Below, in pieces: positions 599-30,800 of a stretch of DNA of 64,000 nt; position 1 is the stretch's first letter; the number at the start of each line of letters is the position of its first letter. Source of the stretch: Naegleria gruberi (taxonomy: Eukaryota). The stretch is from assembly GCA_000004985.1 (NCBI GenBank), contig GG738865.1. The stretch is one strand, 5' to 3'. The translations under genes were made by a program, and so were the position numbers. A model generated the notes under the pieces. It saw only the letters and a list, made by a program, of their open reading frames with translations. It was not told the DNA's origin and searched no databases.

Positions 599-3500
599 TT
601 ATTGAAGGAAGGAAGATAATTTGTTTTGGAGTTGGTTAGTGAAATATTCCTTCATTTTGGATAATGGAGAAAAGATTTTGGATACAATTGACTTGGATTT
701 GCTGGAGATCATGATCATGGTTGAAGTTGGACTAGATTGCCACAAGAGACCGTAAGCAAATATTCTGAAAACTAATCCAAAACTGAGAGCGACCAGGACT
801 AGATAGAGAATGTGATCACTTTGGTAACTGTATAGAGATAGACTCTTTACAATATTGTAATCCTCTTCATAGTTGATAATTTCACCAATGTAGAGCAATT
901 CTCTGACATAACGAGCATGAGAAAGAAGTGGAAACATTGGAAGTGGTTGTGGCATTTCATTCAAATCGGTCAATGTTGGAGTTCCTCCACAAAACATGTA
1001 AGACAGAAAGATTATGGTTGCACATGTAATTTGTCTCAGTTGTGGACTCACTGTAATTGAAACACAGTAAGCTATTGGAAAGGTAACATAGCTCAATAAG
1101 AACATGCTTCCAAAATAGAAACCAAAACTTGCTCTAGGTGAAATGATAAAGTAAAAAGTCAAGGAAAAGAAGAAGGAAACAATGAGAACTTGCAAGTTGG
1201 CTAACAGATCCTTGACCAGAAAGTACATGATAGAATTGATACCATTCAAAGTTTCTCTGATATAATTTGCCTTTTCGTTACCAAAGACTCTCAATGAAGA
1301 CATGGCAGCTGTCAAACTACATCCAAATATTAATAAACTTGCTAGGGCTATCACGTAATCCTTTTGAGGAAGTGCACAAATTGCAATCTTATCAGTTGGA
1401 CATTGATAGACTATACTCTTATCTACAGGTCCTTGATACAAATCACCAGACTGATTCAGGAATAACAATCCCAATAGAAAACCAGCAAGTATACTCAAAA
1501 CAGCATCAAAGATAATACTCATCCAACTTCTGGCCATTTGGATAATGGATCTAATCATTAATGCAATGAATTGTTTGTAAAATGGAGAGACATCTTTGGA
1601 GTGACGAGATTTTCCTCCTTCCTTATTATTTTCCCTTTCAGTTTGCTGAGATGGAATAAGGGAAGGGGTTGATGACAACTCCTCAGCAATTGAATCAATT
1701 CTTAATTGTAATTGATTCAATTCTTCATGAGTAGCTCCAGAAACAAAATCTAAAATTTCATCTGCATTGGCACCTCTCTTGATTTTGAGAATCTTTCCAA
1801 CTTCCCTACATATCACCTCACGCTTACCTCTCAAAACAACTTGTTTAGTCTTGAAAACCATGACATCTGTAAAGAGACAGAAAGTTTCATAGGCAGGTTG
1901 ATGGATAACACAAATGACTGTTTTTCCTCCATCTGCAATTTCCTTGAGGATTTTACAAGTTTTGTTTGCTGTCAAATAATCAAGACCCTACGAATATAAA
2001 ACGATTGATATTGATGAATTTACCAAAAATAGAAAATTGATTAATATAATTAGGAAAATCAAAAAAAAACATACAGTTGTAGGTTCGTCCAAAATAAGAA
2101 CTGCTGGTTGAGTAACCAATTCAATTCCTACATTCACTCTCTTCTTTTCACCACCTGAAATTCCTCTATGCTCTTCATTTCCAATAATTGTATTCGAAGC
2201 ATCATAACCTTCCTTAATAAGCTTCAAATCTCTCAAAACCTTATCCACAACCTTTCTATGTCCATCCATATCCAAATAATCATTCCTAACAAAAGAATTA
2301 AACATGAGTGTCTCTCTTGGAGTCAGAGTATGAATCATTATATCCTGTTGTGGCACAAATCCAATTAATCTCTTTTGGGAATCGGATTTTAATTGCTTCT
2401 TGCCAATATAAACTTTCCCGCCCATTTTACCACGTGCTCTTCTACTCAGAGTGTTGATGAAAGTTGTTTTGCCACTTCCAGATTCTCCTAGAATTGCAGT
2501 GAAGGTGAATGGATGGAATTCGCCACTGCTTTCGTATAGATGAGTGTTACCTGAGAAATCTTTGAAATTCAACTTTTCGTAAGTGATTTTGGCTCCTGTT
2601 TGAGAAGTTTTGGTTTCAGATACGGATTCTTCTAGTTTCTTTGAAGGTTTCTTTAACAAATTAATGGTAATCTTTCGAATAAATAATGGAAGAAATGTGG
2701 AGATTTCACCAGAATATAAAACTCTTTGAATTCTCATGGAAATTGACAAAGTGGCAATCAAGCAGAAAATCAAAATCAAGACGAAACCAATCATGAGCCA
2801 AGTAACTTCACTCATGGAACTTTCTACATAGTAGGAACCACTGATAGTGAATGGGAAACTTGTAGAATTACTTTCTATATAATCTTCTAATGAGGATTCG
2901 GATATTGTTGTCAAGTAATCATATCCTACATAATTAGAACTATTCGAAAGTGTTTCAACTGAGTAAAAGTTGACTTGAAATAAAATTCTCACACCATAAT
3001 TTCCCTTTTCTTCAATTTCTGTTGAATTATCAACAACAGATAACGCAAATTGTTTAAAACCATATTTAGTATTAGAAGTAATCCAATAATTGACCGAATA
3101 TGGATCTAAATAATAAGAAGAGTTGTAGCTCTCAAAGGAAGATAACTCTTTAAAGTAGTAAATGTTGAATGTTGTTGGAGAATAGTAAAATAAAGTCAAC
3201 TTGTCCAAATTTTCAAAAGTTTCACTTGTAGAGTTAATGGAAATGATCTTTTGGGAGAAACATGTCTTGACGAGAGTTGAGTTGAGAGTTGGGTGCTTGT
3301 AAACGAAACCATTGTCAGTGTTGCATGTACTCGAAAATTCTTCATTGAAATAGACGAATTCTGACGAAACTCTTCCGATACTGTAGTAAGAATAATAGAT
3401 GGTTCCACTCAATATCAACATGTAAATGAAAATGAAGAGTGAAATTAACATGCAAGTGATACCATTCTTCAAAATGGATTTCCTTTCTTTCGAAGCATTT

Positions 3501-3772
3501 GTTGAGTGAGGTTTCGTATTTGGTTGATGAGTCGTAGATTGAATATCATCATATTCAGATACAATATCCAGTTGAATAGCTTCATCAAATGACGACTGAC
3601 TATCAGAATTTGCACTCACATGTGTTATTGTTGAACTCTTCACCTTCTTATTTGATTCTCTTGGAGTTTCCATTGGTTTCTCCGATCCATTTTCATCATC
3701 TTGCACCTCTTCAATAGAAATTTCATATTCTACTGAGACCTGTTGTTGACTTGCTGTTCCAAGAGTGGACAT
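599..3772 (-). CDS. ABCG-family (White/WBC-type) half-transporter with an N-terminal extension, about 1028 aa. Model: join(2075..3772, 599..1987), intron 1988..2074 (87 nt).
   Basis: Walker A GESGSGKTT, Q-loop VPQQD, ABC signature LSGGEKKRVNVGIE and Walker B LILDEPTT lie in ORF 1988..3847. The D-loop/H-loop part (GLDYL...VICVIHQP) and a 6-TM ABC2 membrane domain lie in ORF 599..1975. The two are joined by a GTATGT...TAG intron placed right after DEPTT, phase 0, with the frame preserved. The preferred start is ATG 3772..3770 (MSTLGTASQQ), which has an A-run context (AAAAAAAAACATG). An alternative upstream ATG is at 3847. About 130 cytosolic residues, then TM1, a roughly 230-aa N-glycosylation-rich domain and TM2 precede the nucleotide-binding domain. 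Confidence 0.8.
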
Positions 3773-4025
3773 GTTTTTTTTGATTTGTAAACTAATTGCA
3801 TCAGTTTCGTATATCATTCTTTTAACCCAACAGTCAAGAAACAACATTGAAAGTTCTAATGCAATGTTTTAATCAGTGAATTTTCTACATACCGTTGTGG
3901 TAGAATCTTCCATCAGAACACATTCAAAAACTTGTTTGTTGCGTGACGGAACATTTTCAGCTTTTTGAAATATGAACTTGGATCACAAAAATGGATCGTA
4001 CTACCAAGTTTGGAACATTTGCTGT

Positions 4026-4037
4026 TTTGGCGCCAAC
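4026..4037. promoter_or_regulatory. E2F-like palindromic element TTTGGCGCCAAC in the shared divergent promoter of the two ABCG genes.
   Basis: The exact 11-mer TTTGGCGCCAA is one of three copies in the window, all in 5' intergenic DNA. It matches the E2F consensus TTTSGCGC and sits in otherwise AT-rich spacer. Confidence 0.4.
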
Positions 4038-4266
4038 AATTTTCACTGAATATTCGAGTTCTTGGTAAGCAACTGCTTATCACACAATCTTCTTGTCATA
4101 CGTTGAACGGTAAATAGTTCATCATCAAAGTTTCGAATAAGTTTTCCCAACACAAAGTAACTTTCAAAGAAACTTTCAACAAAAAAATGTCAAACAACAA
4201 CTCTCAAACACTCTTTCGTCTTGGCCTTCTTCCACAGAATTATCCACTCAGTGGAATGCCTTCTGT

Positions 4267-7200
4267 GTGGTGCCAATTTCAATCTTGATTTTATGTTTCG
4301 TCATGTTGACGAGTTCATTAGTTTTTGGCTTTAGAAATATGATTCAATTTCCAAAACAACAAAAGAAGAGAAAGGAATTGAATAGAAAGGCGACTGTTGG
4401 TAATTTGAATAGTGATAAAGGTGATATGAGAAATGTTAGTGCTAATTCGTTTGTATTCGAAAGTGAAATGATTAGTTTGGGAAGAGAAGAGCAAGAACCT
4501 AATACTTTTGAACAATTGGGATCTATCGGATTGAATATTTTGAAAAAGACTGAAGAAAAACCAAGTACCACCTCATCAATTAATCAACCAATTCAGGTTG
4601 AAATTAGTAGAAACCTTTCGTCTTCCTCTGTGATGAATTCTTCAATGAAAAATCTCAAGACCATCAATACTACACCAGTTAGTTCACCTAATTTTTGGTC
4701 TCTCTACACTCCTCTTATCATTCTAATCACAATTTTATTAATTCTCTCCTTAATTTGCATCTGTATTGTAACAGCAATTTCAATTTACCAAGTTGACTAT
4801 TTAACACAAAATATTCAAACATTTAATTTAGACAATTCACATCCTGAATGGACAAACACAAGAACCATGACTGAATCTTACGGATCCACCAAGACATACA
4901 CTGAAACTCTTATCCAATTGACTTCATCTCAACAATCCAAAGCTCTCTATGGGTTGTACTCTGCCAATTCAACACTCCGCATTCTCCTCTTCAAGAATCA
5001 AAGCTTATATGATGAGTTTGATACATCCAACTCTATTAATTACTACTCTTCTGATGTAAAGGAGATTAACAAGACGAAACAGGGTGTTATTTTGAATTCA
5101 TGGAAATTGTGGAATGGAAATTCAGATTCAAGCTCACAACAAACATTTCATTTGTTAATTCAGGTGGAGAATTCATCATCTGCTTATGAAGCAATATTCC
5201 ACTTGATTGTTGAGGATGAAAACTATTCAAATGCTTCAAACTTTTTAGTTTTTGTGTGGATTTTAATTTTGGAAATTTTAGTGTGTTTGATAGTTTCGAA
5301 TCAAATTTACTTGTCAATGATTTCTTACGATCCAACCAATAAGCAACTTTTCATTAGTGAGTGGACATCTCCTTTTACATTTTTCTCGTGTAAGAAAGAA
5401 TCAGAAAGTGAAATTTCATCAAAGAAAGATGTTACAATAGAATTTAAGAATTTGAGTTTTCACAGTTTTGAGGGAAAACGAATTTTGAATAATATTTCAG
5501 GAAGAATTGAATCAGGAAAGTTGACAGCCGTGATGGGTTCAACAGGGAGTGGTAAATCAAGTTTCTTAACTGTGCTGAGTAAGAGAGCTCACTATGGAGT
5601 TCAAGAAGGAGAAATTAAACTAAATGGACGAATTCTTACAGAAAGTTTAAAGAAGGCCATTGGTTTTGTCCCTCAAGATGACATTATGATCTCAAGTTTA
5701 CAAATCTGGGAAACTCTTATGTTCAGTTCCATCTACCGATCCATGACATCATTATTCTTTCCCCTGTTTCGAAAGGTCAAAGAAACTGCCGAAATGTTAA
5801 ACATTCGCCACAAACTCTTCAGTACCATTGGTGATGTCAACAAGAAAGTCCTCAGTGGTGGAGAAAAGAAACGTCTCAATGTAGGCATTGAAATAATCAA
5901 CGAATGTCAGGTCCTCCTCCTCGACGAACCAACAAGTGGCCTGGACAGTAAGCAAGCTCTTTTGTTGTGTAAAATTCTGGCCCAGAAAACAAAGAATGAA
6001 GGGTTGAATGTTATTTGCGTGATTCATCAGCCATCTGCTGAGATTTATGAAATGTTTGATGATTTGATATTGTTTAGGAATGGTGAGATGATTGCTCATG
6101 GAGATGCCAAGCAGATTGCAAGTAAATGTGCGAAGGATATTTTGCAAATTTCAGATAATTTTGAAAAGCAAGACGAAAGTGAGGGAAAGGAGAGTGAGGA
6201 GTATAATAATCCTGGAGATTGTGTGATTGCTGCCATGGATATAATGACAGCAGAACAGCAACAGGAACTGATTAGGATTCAACCCTCCCTCAGTAAGTTT
6301 AAACTTGATAAGGGTGGATATCAAAATGAAATGTCAAATTTCATTCCTGTTCCAAATGTGCCATTCTACATTCAAGGATTGGCATTCTTATTCAGAGGAG
6401 TACTCCAAATCTTCCATGAATTCTCATCATTTGCCACTGATCTCCTCATTAACACAATTAGTGGAATTTTCATTGGCGCCATTTTTGTTGGAAGTTTAAA
6501 TTATAATGGTCAGAGTACTGAAGAAATTGCAAAGAAATGCCCAACTTATCTCTACTCGACATGTTCCCAGGCACAAGAGGATGATATTTCTGCATTTATT
6601 AGTATTTTGGTTCTTTCGATTAGTTTATCTTCAATACTGAGCTCTTTGAGTATTTTTGGAAGGGATAAGGTTGTGTTTCGTAGAGAATCTCAAAGTGGAC
6701 TCAATTCATTGGTTTACTTTTTGGTGAAGGATGTGATGGCATTTATTCCAATTAGTTTGGCTTCATTCTTTTTCACAATTTCTAGTTATTATTTGGCTAG
6801 TCCAAAAGGATCGCTGGTTGACTATTTTAAACTGAACTTTCTGATAACTGCCACAACTTATCCGATTGGATATATCATTTCCATAGCGATGAGGACTGAG
6901 ATCTCTCAGATCGCTTCTGGCTTAGTTGTGTTCGTTGTGTATTTATTCTCCGGTGTAACTCCAACTATTCCTGAAATAAGTAGTTTCTATTTTCCTTATT
7001 CCTGGCTTCCACACTTTTCCTTTTTGAGATATGCAAATGAGATATTATACTTGAATGAGTTGAAAAATTATTCATCCTACGGCAAGAGTGTTGAGTCGAA
7101 AGGTTACATTATGGAAATGATTGATGTGAATATGATGTTCATGGTTTCGTTTGCTTTCTTTTTCCATATTTTGGCAGCTGTTGTGTTGTGGCAATCTGTA

Positions 7201-7305
7201 CCTGGTTCTTATGTTAGCATTTGGACTAGTTTGATTAAGAGTAAGGTTACTTTATTCATTCAAACTATTAGAAATCTAAAAAACAAGACGAGCAAAAATT
7301 CCTAA
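4267..7305 (+). CDS. Second ABCG-family half-transporter, a paralogue of 599..3772 with the same extended architecture. The start codon is uncertain: ATG at 4301 or 4338, or an upstream A-run ATG at 4187 joined by an intron.
   Basis: Walker A GSTGSGKSSFL, Q-loop VPQDD, signature LSGGEKKRLNVGIE, Walker B LLLDEPTSGLDS and H-loop VICVIHQP are followed by a 6-TM ABC2 domain. Upstream of the nucleotide-binding domain there are two TM helices (LIILITILLILSLICICIV and LVFVWILILEILVCLIV) flanking an NxS/T-rich roughly 190-aa domain. The first 11 codons of the listed ORF (4267..4299) come from a GTG alternative start and are probably not translated. The frame is open from 4141 with no ATG before 4301. 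Confidence 0.8.
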   Translation: MVPISILILCFVMLTSSLVFGFRNMIQFPKQQKKRKELNRKATVGNLNSDKGDMRNVSANSFVFESEMISLGREEQEPNTFEQLGSIGLNILKKTEEKPSTTSSINQPIQVEISRNLSSSSVMNSSMKNLKTINTTPVSSPNFWSLYTPLIILITILLILSLICICIVTAISIYQVDYLTQNIQTFNLDNSHPEWTNTRTMTESYGSTKTYTETLIQLTSSQQSKALYGLYSANSTLRILLFKNQSLYDEFDTSNSINYYSSDVKEINKTKQGVILNSWKLWNGNSDSSSQQTFHLLIQVENSSSAYEAIFHLIVEDENYSNASNFLVFVWILILEILVCLIVSNQIYLSMISYDPTNKQLFISEWTSPFTFFSCKKESESEISSKKDVTIEFKNLSFHSFEGKRILNNISGRIESGKLTAVMGSTGSGKSSFLTVLSKRAHYGVQEGEIKLNGRILTESLKKAIGFVPQDDIMISSLQIWETLMFSSIYRSMTSLFFPLFRKVKETAEMLNIRHKLFSTIGDVNKKVLSGGEKKRLNVGIEIINECQVLLLDEPTSGLDSKQALLLCKILAQKTKNEGLNVICVIHQPSAEIYEMFDDLILFRNGEMIAHGDAKQIASKCAKDILQISDNFEKQDESEGKESEEYNNPGDCVIAAMDIMTAEQQQELIRIQPSLSKFKLDKGGYQNEMSNFIPVPNVPFYIQGLAFLFRGVLQIFHEFSSFATDLLINTISGIFIGAIFVGSLNYNGQSTEEIAKKCPTYLYSTCSQAQEDDISAFISILVLSISLSSILSSLSIFGRDKVVFRRESQSGLNSLVYFLVKDVMAFIPISLASFFFTISSYYLASPKGSLVDYFKLNFLITATTYPIGYIISIAMRTEISQIASGLVVFVVYLFSGVTPTIPEISSFYFPYSWLPHFSFLRYANEILYLNELKNYSSYGKSVESKGYIMEMIDVNMMFMVSFAFFFHILAAVVLWQSVPGSYVSIWTSLIKSKVTLFIQTIRNLKNKTSKNS

Positions 7306-7717: not shown

Positions 7718-10548
7718 ATGTCTTTTGGGCGCTACAACCAAACCTACCAAGAAGAGGAGGAAGATAGAATTGGAGACGTGGAAGAGGAGGAAGCCGACGA
7801 AGAAGAAGAAGAGGAAGGAGGTTTTGGAAATCCATATGATGATACTTCATTTGAGGATACTAGTCATTCAAAGCAATCCCCTTCATCATCATCACAAAAT
7901 AATGCAAGAAGTGTCTACTCTCCAAGTGCTAGTTATAATAGTATCCCTAATCAGAGTTCAACATCGTTTAATGCCTCATCTTCAACAATGAATGGTTCGT
8001 TATTTACGAGTTCTCACACCAAATTGCCACCAGTCAATGGAGCAACACCAGCATCAACAACACCAACTAATTATCAAACCAATATCGATCTAAGAAATAG
8101 CAATGTTACTAACAAGGAGAATATTAACAATTCTTATGAAGCAACATCGGCTAGGAGTGATCGTTCTACTTACAAGCCATTTACTTATAATCCTCTTCCT
8201 TACCCAACTTCTGCCCACACCCCTTCCACAAATCAACCTCAATCTGTTCCCTACCCTTATGAACCACATGCCCCTCCATCCATTCACTCTGATAGATCTC
8301 TCAAGAGAAAGGAATCATCGGATGAATTATTTGAGGTGATGAATCATCACCACAATGATGTCAACAACACATCAACAGATTACTTTACAAATCGCCCAAG
8401 AAGTGCTGGGAGACCTTCATCTGCCTCTACGCGTCCTTCAAGTGCAGGCTCTACTAGGTCAAAAGTTAATCCCTCTCAATACAAGCTCTCACACATCCCA
8501 ACACCTAAGCAATTTCCAATTGCCTCTTCAAGAAGCACCAATAGTGTTTTAGAGAAGAATACACTCTCTAAAAAACAAGTTGTACAAAATTATTTATCTA
8601 CTGCAAACAAGAGTATGAAAAAGAGAACAATTCCTACCAACTTTTTCAAAGATCCAGAAGGAATGTATATGGATTTGCAAGAATTAAGACAAGAGGTCGC
8701 TATACTAAGAAGAGATAATCAATCACTAAGGACAGCTGCTCAAAAATCAGAAGCTGACAGTACTAGAAAACAAAAGCAAGTGGAGGAGCTACTGAGAGCT
8801 CATGCCCTTGTCGAAACTAAGGGAACAAGATATGAGAATCTTTTCAAGGAAGTCAATGTAAGTACAATATTAGAGACTCGAATTTAACTCGAAAATTATA
8901 GCTTGTGAAGAGCTTGAAATCAAGAATAAGAGAACTTGAAAAGAACCTAAGTGAAAAGGAAAATGAGTTCCAAAGAATTAAATTGGACAGTAGATACACC
9001 AGAGTGAGAGAATTGGAAACTGAATTAAAGGCATACTATACTGAATCAAGAAGACTTCAAAAGGTTGTGGAAGATTTGGAATTGGAAAAGCAGGAACTTG
9101 AAGTGATTGATGAGGAAAATGAAAAATTAAGTCGCCAAAACGTGAAACTAAGAGAACTAATTGTAAAAATGAAACAAGTTCAAGATTATTATAAGGAACA
9201 AAACGAGTCCATTTCTGAAGAGTTGAGATATGTGAGAGACAATAATGGTGCTTCATCTAGGTTATCAGCGCAAGAACATCAAATTGATGACATGTCCAGA
9301 ACGATACATGAACTCAATGAAAGGTTGTCAGAGTATGATCAACAATTGACAGATACAAAGAAAGCAAATGCAGAACTGCAAAGCATTAGTGATGGAATTC
9401 AATTTGATAACAACTCTCTGAGGAAAGAGAACAATGACATGAAAAAAGCAATCGAAGAACAAAAACAAAATTACGAAAGAAAACTCGCAGAAAAAGATAA
9501 TGCTATTACAGAGCTGGGCAAACAGCAGGAATCATATTCACATCTCAGATCGAGTGTGGTGACTGTAGAACAGAGAGTGACAGAGAAGGAGAAGGAATGT
9601 CAATTCCTTACTGCCACACTTAAGGAAAAGACCGATTTGTTAAGTGCCAAGAATCAAGAAATTCTAACACTAAGAAGCAAGATGGAAGGTGTTGAAGAGC
9701 AAAATAATACCCTCATGACCAAATTCAAAGACATGAAAACAATGAATCTCAAATTGTTGGATGAAGTGGCAAATTTACAAAACAAGCTTGCCAATTCAGC
9801 CATGAACACTCCTCCACCAGTGCCAATCCAACCTGTGCATAGCAGTGCTCACGAACAACCAGCCTATGAAGATGTTATTGATCCTGTTGATCTCGTTGAA
9901 TCACCAGAAATTAACTATTGCCCTCCAGAACCAATTGAGGAAGAGGAAGGACTACAACAACCTGAACAACATTCATCAGTCCCGCAAGTGGAACCATCAA
10001 ATGATACTCCAAACAATGTACAAGAGGTTGAAGAAGAAGAGGAACAACAACAAGACGATGACATTGGAGGAAATTACAGTTTTGAGGATGAGACAGAAGA
10101 TCAAGAAGAGTCAATTTACGATGCGGCAGCAACAAAGATTCAGAGATGTGCCAGAAGGTTCTTGGGAAGAAGAAGAAGGCAGAGAATAATATCAGATCGA
10201 GAGCAATTAAGACAAGAACAAGAACTTCAAGCACAACCAGAAGAATCAACGAATTATGAAGAAGAGCAACACCAACCTGTAACTGTTTTGGAAGAGTCCT
10301 ATCAAGAAGAACCGTCATTTGAAGAAGACCACCATGGTGGTGCAACATATGATGAGTTTGGAGGAATGGTTGACCATGACGAGCATGATTATTATGGAAC
10401 TGGTGATTCATTTGAAATGCAAGAAGATCAACACGAACCAATTAACTTTGATGACGATGATAGAAGCGAGGAACACAATTTCAATGATGATAACTTTGAT
10501 GACAATCACTACGATCATCACGATAGCTATGGTGATGATGAGTGGTAA
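7718..10548 (+). CDS. Acidic coiled-coil protein with a C-terminal IQ motif, about 926 aa. Model: join(7718..8857, 8902..10548), intron 8858..8901 (44 nt).
   Basis: ORFs 7718..8887 and 8905..10548 are joined by a GTAAGT...TTATAG intron, phase 0, giving a continuous ...KEVN|LVKSLKSRIRELEK. The start is AAAAAAATG. The protein has a Glu-rich N-terminus, a Ser/Thr/Pro-rich region, roughly 300 aa of heptad-type coiled coil, an IQ-like motif (IQRCARRFLGRRRRQR) and an Asp/His-rich tail ending DDEW. Confidence 0.65.
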
Positions 10549-21850: not shown

Positions 21851-24800
21851 ATGCCAGAGTTTATTACCACCGATAAACGATTGGATTGGCTCTATGAAAA
21901 AATAGCGGATGCCTTCCATATGGATAAGGAAACAATAGCTTCAGTGGGAAGATCAAAAGAAAATATAGGACTAATACAATCATTCCTTGATGGAAAAGGA
22001 GCAAAGTGTCTCCTTTGGTTCTTCTTCAGTCAGGGAGTGAATGATTTTTCTGATTTTGATGAAACCCTCACATCAAGTTCTTTAAACACCTACTCTAAAT
22101 CACAAACAGTTTTATCGTTCGCAACATCAGGAGAGTCCGATTCCGTAGCTTCACAAAAATCACCTAGAGGAAGTGACGGACCAGCCTTCTTAGTATCAAC
22201 AGATTTTAATGCAAACCCTCTTATTAGTAATGCTATTTGTATTTACTTTGTAAAGGAGGATGAAGCAACACAACTTTCAATGAATAATATAGAAGATATT
22301 GCAATGGGAGTAATATCGGGTAATAAGGGATTGATGAAAGAATTAAAAGATAGATTAGAAACATTATACATTCCTCAACTTTTAAAACAATCGGATTGGG
22401 GAGAACTAAGTAATTCAAGCAATTTAGATTCTAAAGAGGAAATTATGGAATTTTTGGAAAATGTTGACAAGTTTGTGCAGAATGTCAGTGAAGCAAAAAT
22501 TGCTTTGGAATCCAGTATTAGATTGGAAGCTCCAAAGAAGTTCTCAAATTTTGATTCAAAACCAAAATCTTTCCTCAAACAAGCTTTGAACAGGGTTGAT
22601 ATAATATCTTCATTTGAAGAGGCAGTCACAACGTGGATGGGAGACATTGATGCCTTATTGAATGAAGTTACTGCAGTCAGAGAAGAAGACGATGAAAGTG
22701 GTCCTGCTGCAGAGTTAGAATATTGGAAATCGAGAATGGCCAAATTCAACAGTATTACAGACCAATTAAGAAATAAGGTCTGCAAAACAGTTCTAAGTGT
22801 TTTAAAAGCTAAGAAATCGGCAGTGTTAGCTGGGTGGAAAAACATTGATATAAGAATTACAGATGCTGCTAACGAAGCAAAAGACAATGTAAAATACTTG
22901 TATATATTGGAAAAATTCAGTGAACCTCTCTACAAGAGTGATCCAGTTCAAATGATTAACACTCTTCCAGCACTCATTAATGCTATCAAAATGATGCAAA
23001 GGTAAGTTAGCTTTCTTGGAATTCAAATATTAATCTTTTCTAATAACAAATTTCTAAAAAATGTCGCAACACAATTTACCTTCAACAGTATCGCAAGGTA
23101 TTACAACACTTCCGAACGAATGACAGCACTTTTTGTTAAAATAACAAATCAAATGATTATTTGTTGTAAAAAGTACATTGTGAAGGATGGTCGTTTGTGG
23201 GAACAAGACACAGAAAAATTAATAGAAAAATTTAAATCATGCATTGATTTGAATGAAGCCTACCAACACTTTTATAGAAAAACTAAAAGCGAATTACAAA
23301 TGAATCCGTTTGGAAAACAATTTGATTTTAGTGAAAGTGCAATTTTCGGAAAGTTTGACCAATTTTGTTGGAGAATTCAAAAATTAATTGATTTATTTAC
23401 TACATTTAATCAATTTTCATATCTTCAGAAATGCACTATTGAAGGTCTGGATCCAATAATTAAACAATTCATCAAAATAATAACAGTGCTAAAGAGAAAG
23501 AAATATGACTTTTTGGATTATAGAAAATCTGTAAGTAATTAATAATAGCAATTTAATTAGAAATATATTTAAATAATACTAGGTATTTGATACTGATTAT
23601 ATTGAATTCAATAATGATATGACTAAATTGGAATTGGAGTTGGTGACCTTTATTAATAATAGTTTTGCTGAAGCTAGGACAACTAAACACTGTTTGGAAC
23701 TTCTTGAACAATTCAGAAAAGTGCTAAAACAAGACAACTTACAAAGGATTTTGGAGGATAAATTCCGATCGATATTCAGCAACTATTCTAGGGATGTGGA
23801 ACATATTAAAAATGTTTATGAGGAAACCAGCAGAAAACCAAATATTCCAAGAAACGCTCCTCCTGTTGCTGGTAATATTGCGTGGTCCAGACAGCTCATG
23901 AGGAGGTTAGAAGAGCCTATGGACTTATTTAAACAAACTCCTGCAATTTTGGAATATAAGGATTCGAAGAAAACTATCAAGCTTTACAACAAGATTGGAA
24001 AAGCATTACTGAGGTTTGAAGCATTATGGATGGAAAAATTCAATGATGCACTTGAAACTGCTAGAGAAGGTCTCTTGGCTACAGTTTTAGTAGAACAAAA
24101 CAATCAACTATATGTTAATTTTGATGGAGATCTTAAAATGTTAATGACAGAAGTTAAATATCTTCAGCTTATGGATATTGAAATTCCTGAAACAGCAATT
24201 TCTATTTTCAACCAACATGAGAGATTGTTGACTCTTGCTGAAAGACTTAGATTCATGGTCAAGGAATATTATCGAGTTATTTCTCTTCAAGACGATCTGT
24301 ACAAACCAATTTTGAAACCTCTTATTTTATCGTTGGATGAGAAAATCAGTGCTGGGAAATCTGCAATTACTTGGTTATCTGTAAGAATTGATAGATTTAT
24401 TGATGAAGTCATGAAGGCTATCTATTCATTGGAAGATACACTTGAAAAAGTGAACGATATTCTTTCGTATAGATTGAAGGCAAATTGTGATTCTATTATG
24501 AAAACCTTCCTAATTTCCTTCTCCTCGGATGTGAGGTCTATTCAACAATTTTTATCAGACAATGAAAAGTTTGCCAAACAAATGGCTATTGAAATTGATA
24601 TTAAGAATCAAGAAATAGAATCAGCAGCCTCAGACCTTATTGCTATAATTACACACAAATATTCTGAGGAAGAAAAGATGGGAGTAGCTAGAGAGTGTAA
24701 AGTATTCAAGAATCATTTCGAAGAGAGAATGCTTGACTCGGTATCTACTTGCCTTAGAGCATCAGTTAAACATTTGAAAGATAGAATCAGTCAAGACAAG

Positions 24801-27800
24801 AGATACAATGCCAAACCTGTTTTCAATGTTCAATTAGCCTTGTCGATACCTAATATTGTATTGCAACCAAGCTTAGAAGAAATTCAAAAATGTGTTAACA
24901 AGTGTGCCAGAATTATGCTTGAATCCACTCAACACATCTATAGATGGAACCAAGAAAAAGCCAAGGAAAAGAAGAGTATTTTCTCTCAAATTGGTGAAGA
25001 TAAGACTACAATTAAGGGTTTCTTGCAATTGACAGGTGCTATTGCAGGTTTATCAAGCAAACTTAACATATTCATTACTAAATTCCAACAATACGACTTC
25101 CTCTGGAAGCAAGATAGAAATGAAGTAATAACTTCCTTCATTGATGGACAAACAACATTGGATGATAAGAAGATACCACCATCATTGGACGACTTTGAAA
25201 GTAAGATCAAACACTTTTCATTGTTGGAAAAGGAAATTGATGACCTAGAACAATATCACCAAGAAGGATCCCTTTTGGTAGATTTAAAACCAATCAAAAG
25301 TGCTCTTAAAGTTGAAGCTTCCCAATGGAAGTTTGCATACGGTCAAGCACTTAACACAAAGGCAAAAGCTGAAATGGAGGATTTACTTAGCTATATTGAA
25401 GAAACTACAAATAATTTGAAGAGAGATGTTTCTGATATAGAAGGAATTAATGGTGTTATGATTGTTCTCAATCAGTTAAGAGAAAGAGAAAGCACCTTCG
25501 ATTTGGAAATCAAGCCAATTAACGAATCTTATGAAATTTTAAAGTTATATAACATTAAAATTTCTAAAGAAGAACTTGAACAAGTTGAAGATAATGGTAT
25601 TGAATTTAAATGGAAAGCTTTAATTGCACTTTCAAGAGAAGTGATGTCAAAATTCCAAAAGATTGGTCCTGGTTTCAGAAGAGACCTTGAACAAAAGGTT
25701 AAGCAATTCAAGAATGAAGTATCAGATTTTAAAAAACTTTACGAGGAACAAGGACCAATGGAAAAGGGAATTAATCCTAGAGTTGCAAAGGCCAGATTGA
25801 CATCTTTTAAGAGTGCCTTTGACGAAAAGCAAAGAAAATGGAAAACATACACCATGGGTGAACGTCTTTTTAGAATGAAAGAAACTGAATATCCAGAGTT
25901 GGTAAAAATTAGCAAAGAATTAGACTGGCTTTCTGGTCTCTACGATCTTTATACAGAAGTTATTGTTACCGTAAATGGATTTGAAGACATAACATGGAAT
26001 GAATTGGATACAGAGGAAATGACTAATACTCTTAATAGTTTCAATATCAAATGTAAAAATATGCACCCAGCTCTCAGAAAATGGGACGCCTATATTGAAC
26101 TTAAAGATACTATTGAAAACTTCCTCAATACTCTTCCATTATTAGAAAAGTTGAATCAAACATGTGTAACTCAAAGACATTGGAAGCAAATTTCTGAGTT
26201 GTGCAAGAAGACCTTGGACTACAAGAATCCTGAATTTAAAATCAGAGATATTGTCGAAGCCAAGTTGGTAGAACACAAGGATGATATCGAGGAAATTGTG
26301 AATGCAGCCAACAGAGAATTAAACGTAGAGAAAAAGCTCGAAGAAATCAAGGAAGAATGGAAACTTAAAAAGTTTACTTTGGGAGACTTTAAAAATAGAG
26401 GAAAGCTTGTTCTTAAGGATACGCAAGATTTGATGCAGAGTATTGAAGATACTCAATTGGCCCTTTCAACATTATTGGGTGATCTTTATAATGAACCATT
26501 CAAACCAGAAATTCAGCAATGGATGGTAAAGCTTTCAGTCACTCAAAGCGTTGTTGATGATTGGCTTCAAATTCAATCACTCTGGATTTATATGTTCTAT
26601 GTTTTCACAGGAGGTGATATTGGTAGAGAGTTACCACACGTATTTAAAAGATTCCAAAATGTTGATAGGTCATGGGTCAAAATTATGTCTACAGCAGAAT
26701 CAGAACCAAATGTTATCAAACTTTGCTACAATGATGAAATGTTAAGAGATTTACTTCCTCACTTGAAGACACTATTGGAAAAATGTCAAAGAGATCTTTC
26801 AGGTTATTTAGAAAAGAAGAGAATGTTATTCCCAAGATTTTTCTTCCTTTCTGATAAGCAAATTCTAGAAATTTTAGGACAAGGAAGTGATCCTTCATCC
26901 ATTCAAAAGCACTTGCTCAGTATTTTCTCTTCAGTTTCAGAGGTTGAGTTTGATGCCAAGCACAAGAACCAAATTATTGCTCTCAGATCTCCAGAAGGAG
27001 AATATGTACCACTTGTAGAACCTGTTATTTGTGAGGATAACATTGAAGTGTGGTTGAATAGATTAGTAGCAGCAATGCAAGAAACTATTCATGAACTAGC
27101 TAGAAATATGAGTGGAACTCTGTTATCAGATTTGTCTGTTGTTGAGAATAACTCTCTCGGTAGAGATAAACTCACCAAATTTATTGGTGACATTCCTTGT
27201 TCCCAACTTGCATTACTTGGTATTCAATTGTTGTGGACATGGGACAGTGAAATGGCTATTAGAAATTCAAGAGAGAGAAATTCTCTTGCCAATGCCAATA
27301 AGAAATTTACTACAATTTTCAATCACTTGGTTACTTTAACAACCAATCCAAAGTTAACACCTCTCCAAAGAACTAGACTTGAAACACTCATTACAATCCA
27401 TATTCATCAAGTTGAAATCTTCCAAGAACTTGTCAGGAAAAAGATTAAAAATGTCAACGATTTTGAATGGACAAAGAGAACAAGATTCTATTGGAAGCCA
27501 GAGCAAGATAAGTGTGTAATATCAATCACAGATGTAGACTTTGAATATTGTAACGAATATTTGGGTTGCACTGAAAGATTGGTCATTACTCAACTTACAG
27601 ACAGAATTTACATTTCTTGTGCTCAAGCTATGGGAATGTTTCTTGGTGGTGCTCCTGCTGGACCTGCAGGTACAGGAAAAACAGAAACAACCAAGGATAT
27701 GGGTAGAACAATGGGAAAGTATTTCATTACTATCAATTGTTCTGATCAAGGTTCTGTACACTCTATGGGAACTACATTTAAGGGCATTGCTCAAAGTGGT

Positions 27801-30800
27801 GCTTGGTGTGGTTTTGATGAAATCAACAGAGTTAAGTTGGAAGTTTTGAGTGTTGTTGCTGCTCAAATTGCTTGTATTTTTGATGCTATGAGAAACAGAG
27901 CAACAAGATTTACTTTCACTGACGGCTCAGATTTAATTTTAGATCCAACATGTGCTTGCTTTATTACATTCAACCCAGGTTATGCTGGTCGTACGGAGTT
28001 ACCAGAAAATATGAAGGCACTCTTCCGAACTATTGCTGTAGTTCAACCTGACAGAAGAATTATTATGAAAGTTAGATTAGCTGCCTCTGGATTTTCTGAC
28101 AATCAAGGTTTATCCAAGAAGTTCGACATGTTATACAAATTGTGTGAACAACAATTATCCAATCAAAACCATTATGATTTTGGTTTGAGAAATATCTTAT
28201 CCGTTCTGAGAACTTGTGGCGTTTCTCTTAGAGCTGAAACTGAGAAAACTGGTATTGACAATAGATCACCAAGAGAAGAAACCAAAGTCTTAATGAGAGT
28301 CTTACAAGATATGAATAATTCAAAACTAGTAGATGAAGACTCTACTCTATTCAAAGAATTATTGAAAGATTTATTCCCAAATGAGTCTACAGATGAATCT
28401 CCTGACGCAAATATGAATGCAGCCATTGATTCTATCATTGACAAGAATGGCCTGATTAATCACCAACCTTGGAAGCTTAAAATTTTACAATTGTATGAAC
28501 AATACAAGGTAAGACATGGCTTGTGTTGTATGGGACCAAGTGGAAGTGGAAAATCAGCAGCTATTAACATTCTTTGTGAGGCTCTTGGTAAAATTGGAAT
28601 TCAAACAAAGATTAAAAAGATGAATCCAAAGTCTATTACCTCAGAACAAATGTTCGGTACTCTCGATAAGGGAACTAATGATTGGGCTGATGGCGTTTTT
28701 ACTTCCTTATGGAGAGAAACAATGGAAAAGAAGAAGGAATATTCATGGGTATTATTGGATGGTCCAGTTGATACTATCTGGATTGAAAATTTGAACACTG
28801 TTCTTGACGATACTAAATCTTTAACATTAGCTAACGGTGACAGATTGAACATGCCAAAAACTTTAAAGTTGGTATTTGAAGTTGGTAGCTTGGACAATGC
28901 TTCTCCTGCTACTGTCTCAAGAATGGGTATGGTTTACATTGGTTCTTCTATTCTTGGATGGGAGCCTCTTTTCCAATCTTGGATAAAGAAAATCGGCAAA
29001 AGACCTTCTTCTGAGATTGAAAAGTTGAAGTTCCTTTTCAACAAATATGTAAATGATATTTTCCTATTCATTGAAAATGAATGTGCACCATCAATGTCAA
29101 ATGGTAATGCAAACGTTATTTCAACTACTTTGAAGATATTGGATGGTTTGTTCACAAACTTTAACAGAAAAACTTTCCCTGATACTATGATTGAAAGGTT
29201 CTTTATCTTCTCTGTCATTTGGGGTGTAGGAGGTACTTTAGAAACTGCTGATAGAATTAAATTACATACCTTCTTGGAAAAGGAATGTAAGATGAATATT
29301 CCTTCTATGGACTCAAACGATACAATTTATGAGTATACCATAGATGAAAATGGTGATTGGAGAAATTGGAAATTCAATGTGCCTGAATGGACATATCCAA
29401 CAGATTTTGTTCCACTTTTCAATTCCATCTTGATTCCAACTGTGGATAATGTAAGAACAGAATTTTTAATTAATCTTATGGCCAAACAAGAGCACTCTGT
29501 ATTACTTATTGGTTCTAGTGGTACAGCCAAGACTGTTACCATCAAAAAGTATCTTAACGATCTGGATAAGAATAAGTTTAAAAACAAATTTATTTCCTTC
29601 TCTAGTGCTACTACCACTGGTATTGTTCAAAATTCAATCTTCACTTCTCTGGAAAAGAGATTGAGCAATAAGGTATTTGGTCCTCCACTCGGAAGAAAAA
29701 TGTATATTTTCATTGATGATATTAACATGCCAGAAATCAACGAATGGGGTGATCAAATTACAAACGAAATTGTTAGACAAGTTATTGAAGATGGTGGATT
29801 CTACTCTCTTGATTCAAATAATCAATGGTTGAAGATTGTTGACGTACAATTCCTTGCAGCAATGAATCAACCTGGTTTTGGTAAAAATGATATTCCTGAC
29901 AGACTCAAGAGACACTTTGCCATTTTCAATTTGACTGTCCCTTCAACCAAGTCCATCGATCATATCTTTACTACAATTGTTGAAGGTCATTATTGCAAAG
30001 CTAGAAATTTCTTGGATGAAGTTGTTCAATGTGCTTCTACTCTACCAGAGCTCACTAGAAAATTGTGGATCTCAACAAAGGAAAAGATGCTTCCAACTCC
30101 AAGCAAGTTCCACTATGTTTTCAACTTGAGAGATTTGAGTAGAATTTTCCAAGGTTTATTATTGGGTACCAATGAAATTATCAAGGACCATCTCGATTTG
30201 CTTCACTTGTGGAAGCACGAAACTGAAAGAGTTCTTCAAGACAAATTTATTGATGAAGCTGATAGAGAATGGTTCCAAACCACTTCCAAAGGTTTGCTCA
30301 AGGAACATTATAGTGATGATGTATCCAGAGCAATTAAATCCAAGTTGTTTGTTGACTTTTTGAGAAAGGCTGAATACGAAGATGAAAATGTTGGAGGTGA
30401 AGAGTTGGACTATGAAGCCAAGCCAATGAATGATGATCCAAAGGTTTATGAACCAGTTGAAGACTTTGGAATTTTGTTCAATAGATTGGACGAGCTATTA
30501 CTTCACTACAATGAAAAACACAAGAAGGAGCCACTTGATATTGTTCTCTTTGACTTTGCTATTCTTCATATTACAAGAATTTCCAGAATTATTAGAAGTG
30601 AGAGAGGTAACGCACTCTTGGTCGGTGTTGGAGGTAGTGGTAAACAATCATTGACTAAGCTTGCTTCCTTCATTGCAGGATACAAGACATTCAAAATTCA
30701 AGTTACAAAGAATTACCACATTCAAGCTCTATTGGATGACCTTAAGAAATTGTACAAGATTGCTGTGCTTGAATCACCTGTTACTTTTATTTTCACTGAC

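What the first reader, a model, noticed from the sequence alone, without database searches (positions are those of the whole stretch)
599..7305. Head-to-head pair of atypical ABCG half-transporters with an extra N-terminal 'two-TM plus luminal domain' module
Two paralogous ABCG (NBD-TMD, White-type) genes are transcribed divergently from a roughly 500-bp shared spacer that carries the E2F-like element. Canonical ABCG proteins begin directly with the cytosolic nucleotide-binding domain. Both of these instead have about 400-530 aa in front of it: a cytosolic segment, then TM helix 1, a roughly 200-250-aa Asn-Xaa-Ser/Thr-rich (probably glycosylated luminal/extracellular) domain, and TM helix 2, which returns the chain to the cytosol. 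One copy has an intron exactly after Walker B (DEPTT|GLDYL); the other is intronless. This ancient duplication suggests a lineage-specific ABCG subfamily with an added extracytoplasmic domain, possibly for substrate or ligand capture.
Basis: partly seen in the sequence, partly recalled or inferred. Interest (0 to 1): 0.55.

Follow-up and report, generated by a model that had tools for sequence, protein, structure and literature searches.

The report
Paired Naegleria ABCG transporters with ectodomains
Two neighbouring, divergently transcribed Naegleria gruberi genes encode ABCG-type pumps with an extra membrane-anchored, probably sugar-coated outer domain; that general design already occurs in related pumps of other eukaryotes, but this domain is found only in Naegleria and Willaertia.

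Summary
The window is Naegleria gruberi. Gene A (599-3772, minus strand, one 87-nt intron) is EFC45038.1 and gene B (plus strand, to 7305) is EFC44933.1. They are 30%-identical ABCG half-transporters arranged head-to-head.

Each has, ahead of the nucleotide-binding domain, a hydrophobic helix, a 155-200-aa N/S/T-rich domain and a second helix. This lies in the same exon as the ATPase domain, so it is not a separate gene.

- An N-terminal ectodomain plus membrane anchor is not new for ABCG. The closest relatives (Acrasis, a diatom, plant ABCG24/28-type, all Pfam PF19055) carry a Cys-rich ectodomain and one TM helix. Yeast Adp1 is a further precedent.
- Gene B has a third, conserved N-terminal helix that the reference annotation cuts in half, because of a 1-nt frameshift relative to a sister strain.

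The head-to-head pair is conserved in N. lovaniensis and N. fowleri, as with mammalian ABCG5/ABCG8. My best guess is a co-expressed A/B heterodimeric exporter, but this is unproven. I rate it a new variant of a known kind, of moderate interest.

The parts
599..1987 (-). Gene A exon 2 (stop codon 599-601). It encodes GLDYL..., the H-loop (VICVIHQP), a linker and the ABC2-type TMD (Pfam TMD match at about 746-1573).
   Evidence: The spliced product equals EFC45038.1.
1988..2074 (-). Gene A intron, 87 nt, GTATGT...TAG, phase 0, between DEPTT and GLDYL.
   Evidence: Confirmed by exact identity of the spliced translation to the annotated protein. The orthologous introns in N. lovaniensis and N. fowleri lie 5 codons upstream, at LIL|DEPTT.
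2075..3772 (-). Gene A exon 1, from the annotated ATG (3772-3770). It contains the cytosolic low-complexity tail, TM1, the ectodomain, TM2 and the NBD up to Walker B, all in one exon.
3401..3469 (-). Gene A TM1 (signal-anchor-like helix, KNGITCMLISLFIFIYMLILSGT). The upstream flank has 4 K/R.
   Evidence: Conserved as a hydrophobic helix in the orthologues. Helical in the AF2 model.
2801..3400 (-). Gene A ectodomain, about 200 aa, with 6 N-X-S/T sequons. Predicted beta-sandwich.
2732..2800 (-). Gene A TM2 (WLMIGFVLILIFCLIATLSISMR), which returns the chain to the cytosol.
2075..2527 (-). Gene A NBD, exon-1 part: Walker A GESGSGKTT, Q-loop VPQQD, signature ISGGEKKR, Walker B LILDEPTT.
3773..4186 (.). 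Shared divergent spacer (putative bidirectional promoter). It carries the E2F-like TTTGGCGCC at 4026-4034.
   Evidence: The sequence is poorly conserved between Naegleria species and the E2F-like site is not conserved.
4187..4204 (+). Probable true start of gene B (ATG 4187, MSNNNS...). It is out of frame with the main ORF in this assembly. Inserting one A after 4204 restores MSNNNSTNTLSSWPSSTELSTQWNAFCVVPISIL..., as encoded by a sister strain (P0133).
4267..7305 (+). Gene B main ORF. The annotated ATG is at 4303 and the stop codon at 7303-7305. There is no intron in N. gruberi.
4267..4332 (+). Gene B TM0 (VVPISILILCFVMLTSSLVFGF) followed by a K/R-rich stretch (KQQKKRK). The annotated start codon cuts it in half.
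   Evidence: Conserved in N. lovaniensis, N. fowleri, P0133 and P0134.
4705..4779 (+). Gene B TM1 (YTPLIILITILLILSLICICIVTAI).
4780..5241 (+). Gene B ectodomain, about 155 aa, with 6 sequons and no Cys. Weakly but collinearly homologous to the gene A ectodomain.
5242..5304 (+). Gene B TM2 (FLVFVWILILEILVCLIVSNQ), with a Glu in mid-helix.
5485..5937 (+). Gene B NBD (Pfam ABC_tran match): Walker A GSTGSGKSS, signature LSGGEKKR, Walker B LLLDEPTSGLD. The H-loop (VICVIHQPS) lies downstream of this match, after Walker B.
6379..7179 (+). Gene B ABC2-type TMD (PF01061 and the C-terminal half of PF19055).

Best explanation
These are two functional ABCG half-transporters of Naegleria gruberi, with the cytosolic NBD first and an ABC2-type six-helix TMD second. 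They belong to the eukaryotic ABCG clade whose members carry an extracytoplasmic domain and a membrane anchor in front of the NBD (PF19055 / plant ABCG24-28 type).

In the Naegleria-Willaertia lineage the usual Cys-rich ectodomain is absent. In its place is an orphan, Cys-poor, N/S/T-rich domain of 155-200 aa. It is predicted to be a beta-sandwich and is probably N-glycosylated. It hangs between two extra TM helices: TM1 acts as a signal anchor and TM2 returns the chain to the cytosol. The B lineage has one more helix, TM0.

Like all half-size ABCGs, the proteins must dimerise. The A-type and B-type genes are kept head-to-head across a spacer of about 0.4-0.6 kb in three Naegleria species, so I think they are most likely co-expressed from a bidirectional promoter and work as an A/B heterodimer. 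In that model ATP hydrolysis at two intact sites exports a (probably hydrophobic) substrate, and the two ectodomains sit over the outer exit as an acceptor, lid or partner-binding module.

Shown: ABCG identity, intact ATPase motifs, one continuous reading frame, conserved hydrophobic helices, conserved sequon positions, restricted taxonomic range, and the conserved gene arrangement.

Inferred: membrane topology, glycosylation, heterodimerisation, substrate, and the role of the ectodomain.
For: ABCG identity and intact motifs.

Same-exon continuity of the N-terminal module and the NBD. The gene A model is identical to EFC45038.1.

Helices and topology: hydrophobic helices with positive-inside flanks, helical in the AF2 model.

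Ectodomain conservation: 52-54% identity within the A and within the B orthologue sets. A versus B gives hhalign E=9e-4 over 76 columns.

Conserved sequon columns. Sequon excess beyond composition in the B orthologues.

Taxonomic range: an exhaustive HMM search of 1.84 billion representatives finds the ectodomain only in Naegleria spp. and Willaertia magna, always upstream of an ABCG NBD. This includes two further N. gruberi paralogues.

Phylogeny: the NJ tree gives A-type + B-type 100%, sister Acrasis Cys-rich ABCG 78%, and a wider ectodomain-bearing clade 100%. N-terminal Cys-rich region + 1 TM in relatives. PF19055 matches.

Gene arrangement: head-to-head is conserved in N. lovaniensis (L002) and N. 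fowleri (L003). Precedent: the ABCG5/ABCG8 heterodimer genes are head-to-head, 374 bp apart (PMC6824678).
Against: There is no direct evidence for heterodimerisation. Both proteins keep fully canonical Walker A/B, signature, Q- and H-loops, so no degenerate site forces a heterodimer.

The Willaertia homologue is not next to another ABCG gene.

Adjacency of the second N. gruberi A-like/B-like pair is inferred only from consecutive UniProt accessions.

In the two window proteins the sequon count is no higher than composition predicts.

Topology rests on Kyte-Doolittle hydropathy and flank charges, not on a dedicated predictor or experiment.

The spacer is poorly conserved between species.
Confidence: 0.55

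Rival explanations
1. A and B each work as homodimers. The head-to-head layout would then be only the footprint of an old inverted tandem duplication, kept because both genes use the same promoter region.
For: Both NBDs have all catalytic motifs intact, unlike ABCG5/G8. Most half-size ABCGs can homodimerise (general knowledge). The Willaertia homologue is a solitary gene at its locus.
Against: The arrangement is retained in three Naegleria species despite a poorly conserved spacer. A-type and B-type have stayed distinct lineages. N. gruberi has a second A-like plus B-like set with consecutive accession numbers.
Confidence: 0.35
2. The ectodomain does not handle substrate. Instead it acts as a GOLD-like sorting, trafficking or dimerisation module, for example directing the transporter to a specific compartment or binding a luminal partner, as p24 GOLD domains do for cargo.
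Against: GOLD similarity is structural only and modest (8% identity). Foldseek is not significant and there is no EMP24/GOLD Pfam hit. Generic jelly rolls score nearly as well.
Confidence: 0.3
3. The N-terminal regions are annotation artefacts: separate genes, untranslated leader, or hydrophobic segments that do not span the membrane.
For: There are no transcript data here. The 5' end of gene B is clearly mis-modelled in the reference.
Against: The module and the NBD share one uninterrupted exon/ORF in N. gruberi A and B, N. lovaniensis and N. fowleri. The annotated Willaertia protein has the same architecture. The ectodomain is 52-54% identical between species, with invariant motifs. The helices have KD means of 2.4-3.5.
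Confidence: 0.03

Closest known systems
Plant ABCG24/ABCG28-type long half-size ABCGs (Pfam PF19055, ABC2_membrane_7) and their protist relatives (Acrasis kona AKO1_012987, Thalassiosira THAOC_02585)
   Same: They share the order ectodomain - TM anchor - cytosolic NBD - ABC2 TMD, are about 900-1150 aa long, and have a PF19055-type TMD. The window proteins fall in the same, or an adjacent, clade.
   Different: The relatives have a signal peptide or short N-terminus, a Cys-rich CPxGxxC-repeat ectodomain and a single TM helix. The Naegleria proteins have no such repeats (0-2 Cys in the ectodomain), an unrelated N/S/T-rich beta-sandwich domain, two flanking TM helices (three in B) and often a long disordered cytosolic tail. 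They match only the C-terminal half of PF19055.
Saccharomyces cerevisiae Adp1 clade (fungal 'clade V' half-size PDR/ABCG with an extra EGF-type sequence)
   Same: An ABCG half-transporter with an additional N-terminal extracytoplasmic sequence (PMC9426558). The basidiomycete Cys-rich + 1 TM ABCGs seen here resemble Adp1 in architecture; I infer they are Adp1-like.
   Different: In my tree the fungal group clusters with canonical short ABCGs, not with the Naegleria clade. Its TMD matches PF01061 far better than PF19055. Its ectodomain is EGF-like/Cys-rich.
Mammalian ABCG5/ABCG8
   Same: [quoted passage not shown]
   Different: ABCG5/G8 have no N-terminal ectodomain or extra helices, and have one degenerate nucleotide-binding site (from my own knowledge). 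Here both sites look catalytic and heterodimerisation is untested.
p24/TMED GOLD domains
   Different: Identity is about 8%. There is no sequence-profile match and Foldseek is not significant. The Naegleria domain is about twice as long, with insertions, and is attached to an ABC transporter rather than a single-pass cargo receptor.
ABC exporters with large extracytoplasmic domains (ABCA family ECDs; bacterial MacB/LolCDE periplasmic domains)
   Same: The concept is the same: an extracytoplasmic domain between two TM helices sits above an ABC transporter. This comparison is from my own knowledge and was not tested here.
   Different: In those families the domain is inserted within the core TMD (between TM1 and TM2). 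Here it lies in an accessory helical hairpin N-terminal to the NBD, and no homology was found.

Membership tests
ABCG subfamily (reverse-order NBD-TMD, type V/ABC2 exporter) | One NBD precedes an ABC2-type TMD in the same polypeptide. | tested here: met
   ABC_tran matches at A 441-591 and B 407-557, followed by ABC2_membrane / ABC2_membrane_7 at 705-1005. The best PDB relatives are ABCG/PDR proteins.
ABCG subfamily (reverse-order NBD-TMD, type V/ABC2 exporter) | Intact Walker A, Q-loop, signature, Walker B with catalytic Glu, and H-loop. | tested here: met
   A: GESGSGKTT, VPQQD, ISGGEKKR, LILDEPTT, VIHQP. B: GSTGSGKSS, VPQDD, LSGGEKKR, LLLDEPTS, VIHQP.
PF19055 / plant ABCG24-28-type ectodomain-bearing ABCG clade | The TMD matches PF19055 above the gathering score. 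| tested here: met
   57.1 bits (A) and 65.4 bits (B) against a cutoff of 22.7, but only profile positions about 213-403 of 410 are matched. The plant P0043 scores 687 bits over the full length.
PF19055 / plant ABCG24-28-type ectodomain-bearing ABCG clade | Phylogenetic placement with ectodomain-bearing ABCGs rather than canonical short ABCGs. | tested here: met
   NJ tree with 200 bootstraps: 100% for the clade with Acrasis, Thalassiosira, Amoebophrya and metagenomic Cys-rich ABCGs. The link to the plant sequence itself is weak (14%). Distance method only; no ML tree was made.
PF19055 / plant ABCG24-28-type ectodomain-bearing ABCG clade | An extracytoplasmic N-terminal domain followed by a TM anchor before the NBD. 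| tested here: met
   Present in variant form, as TM1-ectodomain-TM2. The topology is inferred, not measured.
PF19055 / plant ABCG24-28-type ectodomain-bearing ABCG clade | A Cys-rich CPxGxxC-type repeat ectodomain. | tested here: not met
   There are no C-x(1,2)-G-x(1,2)-C motifs and only 4-7 Cys in the whole N-terminal region of the Naegleria proteins, against 11-38 Cys and 3-6 motifs in relatives.
GOLD / EMP24 domain family | Sequence-profile match to a GOLD/EMP24 family. | tested here: not met
   None of the 11 ectodomain sequences has a Pfam hit at E<=5 apart from stray matches. There is no PDB sequence hit at E<=10.
GOLD / EMP24 domain family | GOLD beta-sandwich fold. | tested here: inconclusive
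ABCG5/ABCG8-like obligate heterodimer pair | Head-to-head paralogous genes sharing a short intergenic region. | tested here: met
   Window 3773-4186. Conserved in L002 (N. lovaniensis) and L003 (N. fowleri).
ABCG5/ABCG8-like obligate heterodimer pair | Asymmetric (one degenerate) nucleotide-binding site. | tested here: not met
   All motifs are canonical in both A and B.
ABCG5/ABCG8-like obligate heterodimer pair | Physical and functional heterodimerisation. | not testable with these tools
   This needs co-expression or co-purification experiments, or at least multimer structure prediction.

The most novel reading that the evidence does not exclude
Naegleria and Willaertia have built, within the ABCG family, an obligate A/B heterodimeric exporter. 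Its two glycosylated GOLD-like beta-sandwich ectodomains, each held by an accessory TM hairpin, would form a luminal or extracellular chamber that receives or hands off a hydrophobic cargo such as a sterol or lipid. That would be an ABCA/MacB-like design reached independently, and it would place a lineage-specific surface module on a transporter of the pathogen N. fowleri.
Probability: 0.12. Interest if true: 0.6.

Novelty: new variant of a known kind. Interest (0 to 1): 0.38.

Why it matters
ABCG transporters with N-terminal ectodomains (plant ABCG24/28, yeast Adp1 and protist relatives) are widespread, and as far as I know the role of the ectodomain has not been established.

The Naegleria/Willaertia proteins show that the ectodomain can be swapped while the anchor-NBD-TMD chassis is kept. 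This argues that what matters is having some extracytoplasmic module over the exporter, and it offers a natural comparison for working out what the module does.

The conserved head-to-head A/B pairing gives a testable heterodimer hypothesis outside animals.

The ectodomain is exposed, is found only in this lineage, and is present in N. fowleri. That makes it a conceivable marker or target.

The analysis also corrects the reference gene model of NAEGRDRAFT_48707, which has a truncated first helix and a 1-nt frameshift.

Tried and rejected
- A word-indexed homology search with the gene A N-terminus alone found only a near-identical metagenome ORF. This was a limit of the index, not true absence: full-length searches and the exhaustive HMM search found orthologues.
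- The first AF2 run, which included both TM helices with 6 sequences, was too poor to use (pLDDT 54).
- Foldseek against the PDB gave no significant hit. The afdb50 library was unavailable.
- Pfam and PDB sequence searches with the ectodomain gave nothing.
- A bacterial protein with Gmad2 Ig-like repeats (P0135) hit the ectodomain profile through four weak repeated stretches. I treat this as compositional or generic beta-sandwich similarity, not homology.
- I could not retrieve the second N. gruberi pair (P0137/P0139). The genome is not in the positional index, and the metagenome scan found only distant ABC genes.
- I considered an upstream exon for gene B (ATG near 3993, GTAAGC donor near 4066). 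I dropped it because the simpler 1-nt frameshift explanation is supported by a sister-strain protein.
- Literature searches found nothing on Naegleria ABCGs or on the ABCG24/28 N-terminal domain in the held library. The ABCG28 paper (PMC6589667) is not held.
- A Biopython bootstrap tree timed out and was replaced by a numpy NJ tree.


Full report
**What is there**

The window is Naegleria gruberi. The plus-strand ORF 4267-7305 contains the annotated 1000-aa 'predicted protein' EFC44933.1/D2VDP6 (NAEGRDRAFT_48707), which starts at ATG 4303.

On the minus strand, ORFs 1988-3847 and 599-1975 are joined by removing an 87-nt GTATGT...TAG intron (2074..1988) lying exactly between DEPTT and GLDYL. 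The spliced product from ATG 3772 is identical to the annotated 1028-aa protein EFC45038.1/D2VDP5 (NAEGRDRAFT_66992).

Both genes are therefore already annotated, but only as uncharacterised predicted proteins. I found no paper on them in the held library.

**ABCG identity**

- Both proteins match ABC_tran, followed by ABC2_membrane_7 (PF19055) and ABC2_membrane.
- Their best solved relatives are Pdr5/Cdr1, plant ABCG16/25 and human ABCG2/5/8/1.
- Walker A, Q-loop, signature, Walker B (with the catalytic Glu) and H-loop are canonical in both.
- A and B are 30% identical over 886 residues, E=1e-96.

**The N-terminal module**

Walker A begins at about residue 429 of annotated A and about 412 of annotated B. 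Upstream, each protein has two very hydrophobic 19-residue windows, with Kyte-Doolittle means of 2.4 and 2.9 in A and 3.5 and 3.0 in B. These bracket about 200 aa in A and about 155 aa in B.

There are four K/R residues just before TM1 of A, and acidic flanks before TM2 of both proteins. The first AF2 model makes both segments long helices.

The bracketed domain is rich in N, S and T (35-36% combined in the two window proteins) and poor in Cys. It holds 3.0-3.8 sequons per 100 aa, against 0.6-0.9 elsewhere in the protein. In the window proteins composition alone explains this. In the B orthologues the excess beyond composition is significant (P=4e-4 and 1.4e-3). Several sequon columns are shared by 6-8 of 11 family members.

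The module and the NBD lie in one exon/ORF in both genes and in the N. lovaniensis and N. fowleri orthologues. The annotated Willaertia protein has the same architecture. The 'separate gene or UTR' refutation scenario is therefore very unlikely.

**Corrections to the anatomy**

Gene B has a third helix, TM0 (VVPISILILCFVMLTSSLVFGF), followed by KQQKKRK. TM0 is conserved in N. lovaniensis, N. fowleri and two environmental Naegleria sequences.

The annotated ATG 4303 lies in the middle of TM0, and the frame has no upstream ATG. An ATG at 4187 (MSNNNS...) is out of frame. Inserting one A after 4204 gives MSNNNSTNTLSSWPSSTELSTQWNAFCVV..., matching the N-terminus of P0133 from a near-identical strain. 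So the reference either has a 1-nt error or a strain-specific frameshift. The natural B protein most likely starts at 4187, with its N-terminus outside.

The long cytosolic tails are low-complexity and variable. They range from about 100 to about 235 aa in A orthologues. They are only about 10 aa in a third N. gruberi paralogue (P0139 = EFC45832.1) and in the Willaertia magna homologue (P0138). The conserved unit is therefore TM1-ectodomain-TM2.

**Is the ectodomain homologous between A and B, and where else is it found?**

Within the A orthologue set and within the B orthologue set the domain is 52-54% identical. Between A and B it aligns collinearly around a shared L..LY.s..t..I..FK..S.(F/Y) core. 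hhalign gives E=9e-4 but only 22% probability.

An exhaustive HMMER search of 1.84 billion cluster representatives returned 10 hits. Nine are Naegleria or Willaertia ABCG N-termini. The tenth is a bacterial Gmad2-repeat protein that I regard as spurious. There is no Pfam family or PDB chain match. The domain is therefore an orphan family restricted, as far as can be seen, to these two genera of the heterolobosean amoebae.

**Fold**

With an 11-sequence alignment, AF2 gives pLDDT 74.8 and pTM 0.73. The model has several long antiparallel strands and one main helix.

I conclude the domain is a beta-sandwich/jelly roll, possibly GOLD-like. The GOLD assignment is not secure.

**Relation to known ABCGs**

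The premise that ABCGs start with the NBD is true for the well-known members but not for the clade these proteins belong to.

- The closest non-Naegleria relative is Acrasis kona AKO1_012987 (33% identity). It has about 200 aa of CPxGxxC-type Cys-rich repeats and one TM helix before its NBD.
- The same plan occurs in Thalassiosira THAOC_02585, in many metagenomic proteins, and in a plant ABCG24/28-type protein (Beta vulgaris, 1095 aa). The plant protein matches PF19055 over its full length at 687 bits.
- In an NJ tree of the NBD-TMD region (200 bootstraps), A-type and B-type proteins form a 100% clade. This splits into [N. gruberi 79337 + A orthologues] (82%) and [Willaertia + B orthologues] (72%). 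The sister group is the Acrasis protein (78%). All lie inside a 100% clade of ectodomain-bearing protist ABCGs.
- Canonical short ABCGs and the fungal Cys-rich group (which I infer to be Adp1-like) lie elsewhere in the tree.
- The yeast ADP1 clade is described in the literature as NBD+TMD plus an extra, mostly EGF, sequence (PMC9426558).

The Naegleria proteins are thus a variant of a known architecture. The anchor-NBD-TMD chassis is retained, the Cys-rich ectodomain is replaced by an unrelated one, and the signal peptide is replaced by a signal-anchor helix.

**Gene arrangement**

The head-to-head layout is conserved in two other species.
- N. lovaniensis: C9374_003920 (A) and C9374_003921 (B), spacer about 437 bp.
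- N. fowleri: contig L003, spacer about 0.5-0.6 kb.

The spacer sequence itself is poorly conserved, and the E2F-like TTTGGCGCC (4026-4034) has no counterpart in the other species.

N. gruberi has a second A-like gene (D2VBP6) and B-like gene (D2VBP5) on another scaffold. Their UniProt accessions are consecutive, exactly as for the window pair (D2VDP5/D2VDP6), which suggests a second adjacent pair. I could not retrieve that locus. The Willaertia homologue I could inspect is a solitary gene.

The obvious precedent is ABCG5/ABCG8: head-to-head, 374 bp apart, with a presumed bidirectional promoter, and an obligate heterodimer (PMC6824678).

**Mechanism**

Half-size ABCGs act as dimers. I commit to a co-expressed A/B heterodimeric exporter. 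It would have two catalytic ATP sites and two accessory helical hairpins, each displaying a glycosylated beta-sandwich over the extracytoplasmic face.

- I put about 45-55% on the heterodimer. About 35% goes to separate homodimers.
- Whether the ectodomain handles substrate (acceptor or lid) or acts as a GOLD-like sorting or interaction module is open.
- Nothing here identifies the substrate or the membrane.

**Verdict**

This is a new variant of a known kind, namely the ectodomain-bearing ABCG clade, with an orphan, taxonomically restricted ectodomain and a conserved bidirectional gene pair. Interest is moderate (0.38).

Noticed in passing
window 4187-4305: The reference gene model of NAEGRDRAFT_48707 (gene B) starts at ATG 4303, in the middle of a conserved TM helix. 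ATG 4187 is out of frame by one base. Adding an A after 4204 recreates the N-terminus encoded by a near-identical strain (P0133). This is either an assembly error or a strain-specific frameshift.
   Followed up: yes
window 1988-2074; L002 (N. lovaniensis) and L003 (N. fowleri): Intron positions around Walker B differ between orthologues and paralogues by a few codons. N. gruberi A has DEPTT|GLD. N. lovaniensis and N. fowleri A have LIL|DEPTT, plus a second intron after GESGSGK. N. lovaniensis and N. fowleri B have DEPTSGL|DSK. N. gruberi B has none. This could be intron sliding, or repeated loss and gain at one spot.
   Followed up: partly
window 4026-4034: The E2F-like TTTGGCGCC in the spacer has no conserved counterpart in the aligned N. 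lovaniensis and N. fowleri spacers. The spacers as a whole align poorly.
   Followed up: partly
window 5242-5304 (gene B TM2): A mid-helix Glu (VWILILEILVCL) is conserved in the B-type TM2 of N. lovaniensis and N. fowleri. From the sequences returned, P0134 also has Glu there and the B-like paralogue P0137 has Gln. A-type TM2 has no charged residue. This may be a helix-packing or partner contact.
   Followed up: no
window about 1330-1400 (gene A) and about 6500-6570 (gene B): The first extracellular loop of the TMD is extended and carries a conserved Cys pair (YQCPTDKIAICALPQKD / KKCPTYLYSTCSQAQEDD). Acrasis and Willaertia share it, but the plant PF19055 protein does not.
   Followed up: no
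L001 (ENA ERZ929261, run ERR1078381, contig k127_139885): A metagenome contig carries gene A at 99% protein identity, so a very close N. gruberi-like strain is present in that environmental sample.
   Followed up: no
not in the window: N. gruberi EFC45945.1/D2VBP5 and EFC45832.1/D2VBP6 (507-kb scaffold): There is a second B-like (fragmentary 302-aa model) and A-like (920 aa) paralogue set with consecutive UniProt accessions, probably a second adjacent pair. The A-like protein has only about 12 residues before TM1.
   Followed up: partly
window 23619-35735 (+): A single uninterrupted ORF of 4038 aa lies here, and the rest of the window holds several other ORFs of 1100-1365 aa. None was examined.
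   Followed up: no
window 7718-8887 (+) versus L002 11684-12862 (+): A gene of similar size (389 versus 392 aa) and the same orientation lies downstream of gene B in both N. gruberi and N. lovaniensis. Synteny may extend beyond the pair, but I did not compare the two sequences.
   Followed up: no
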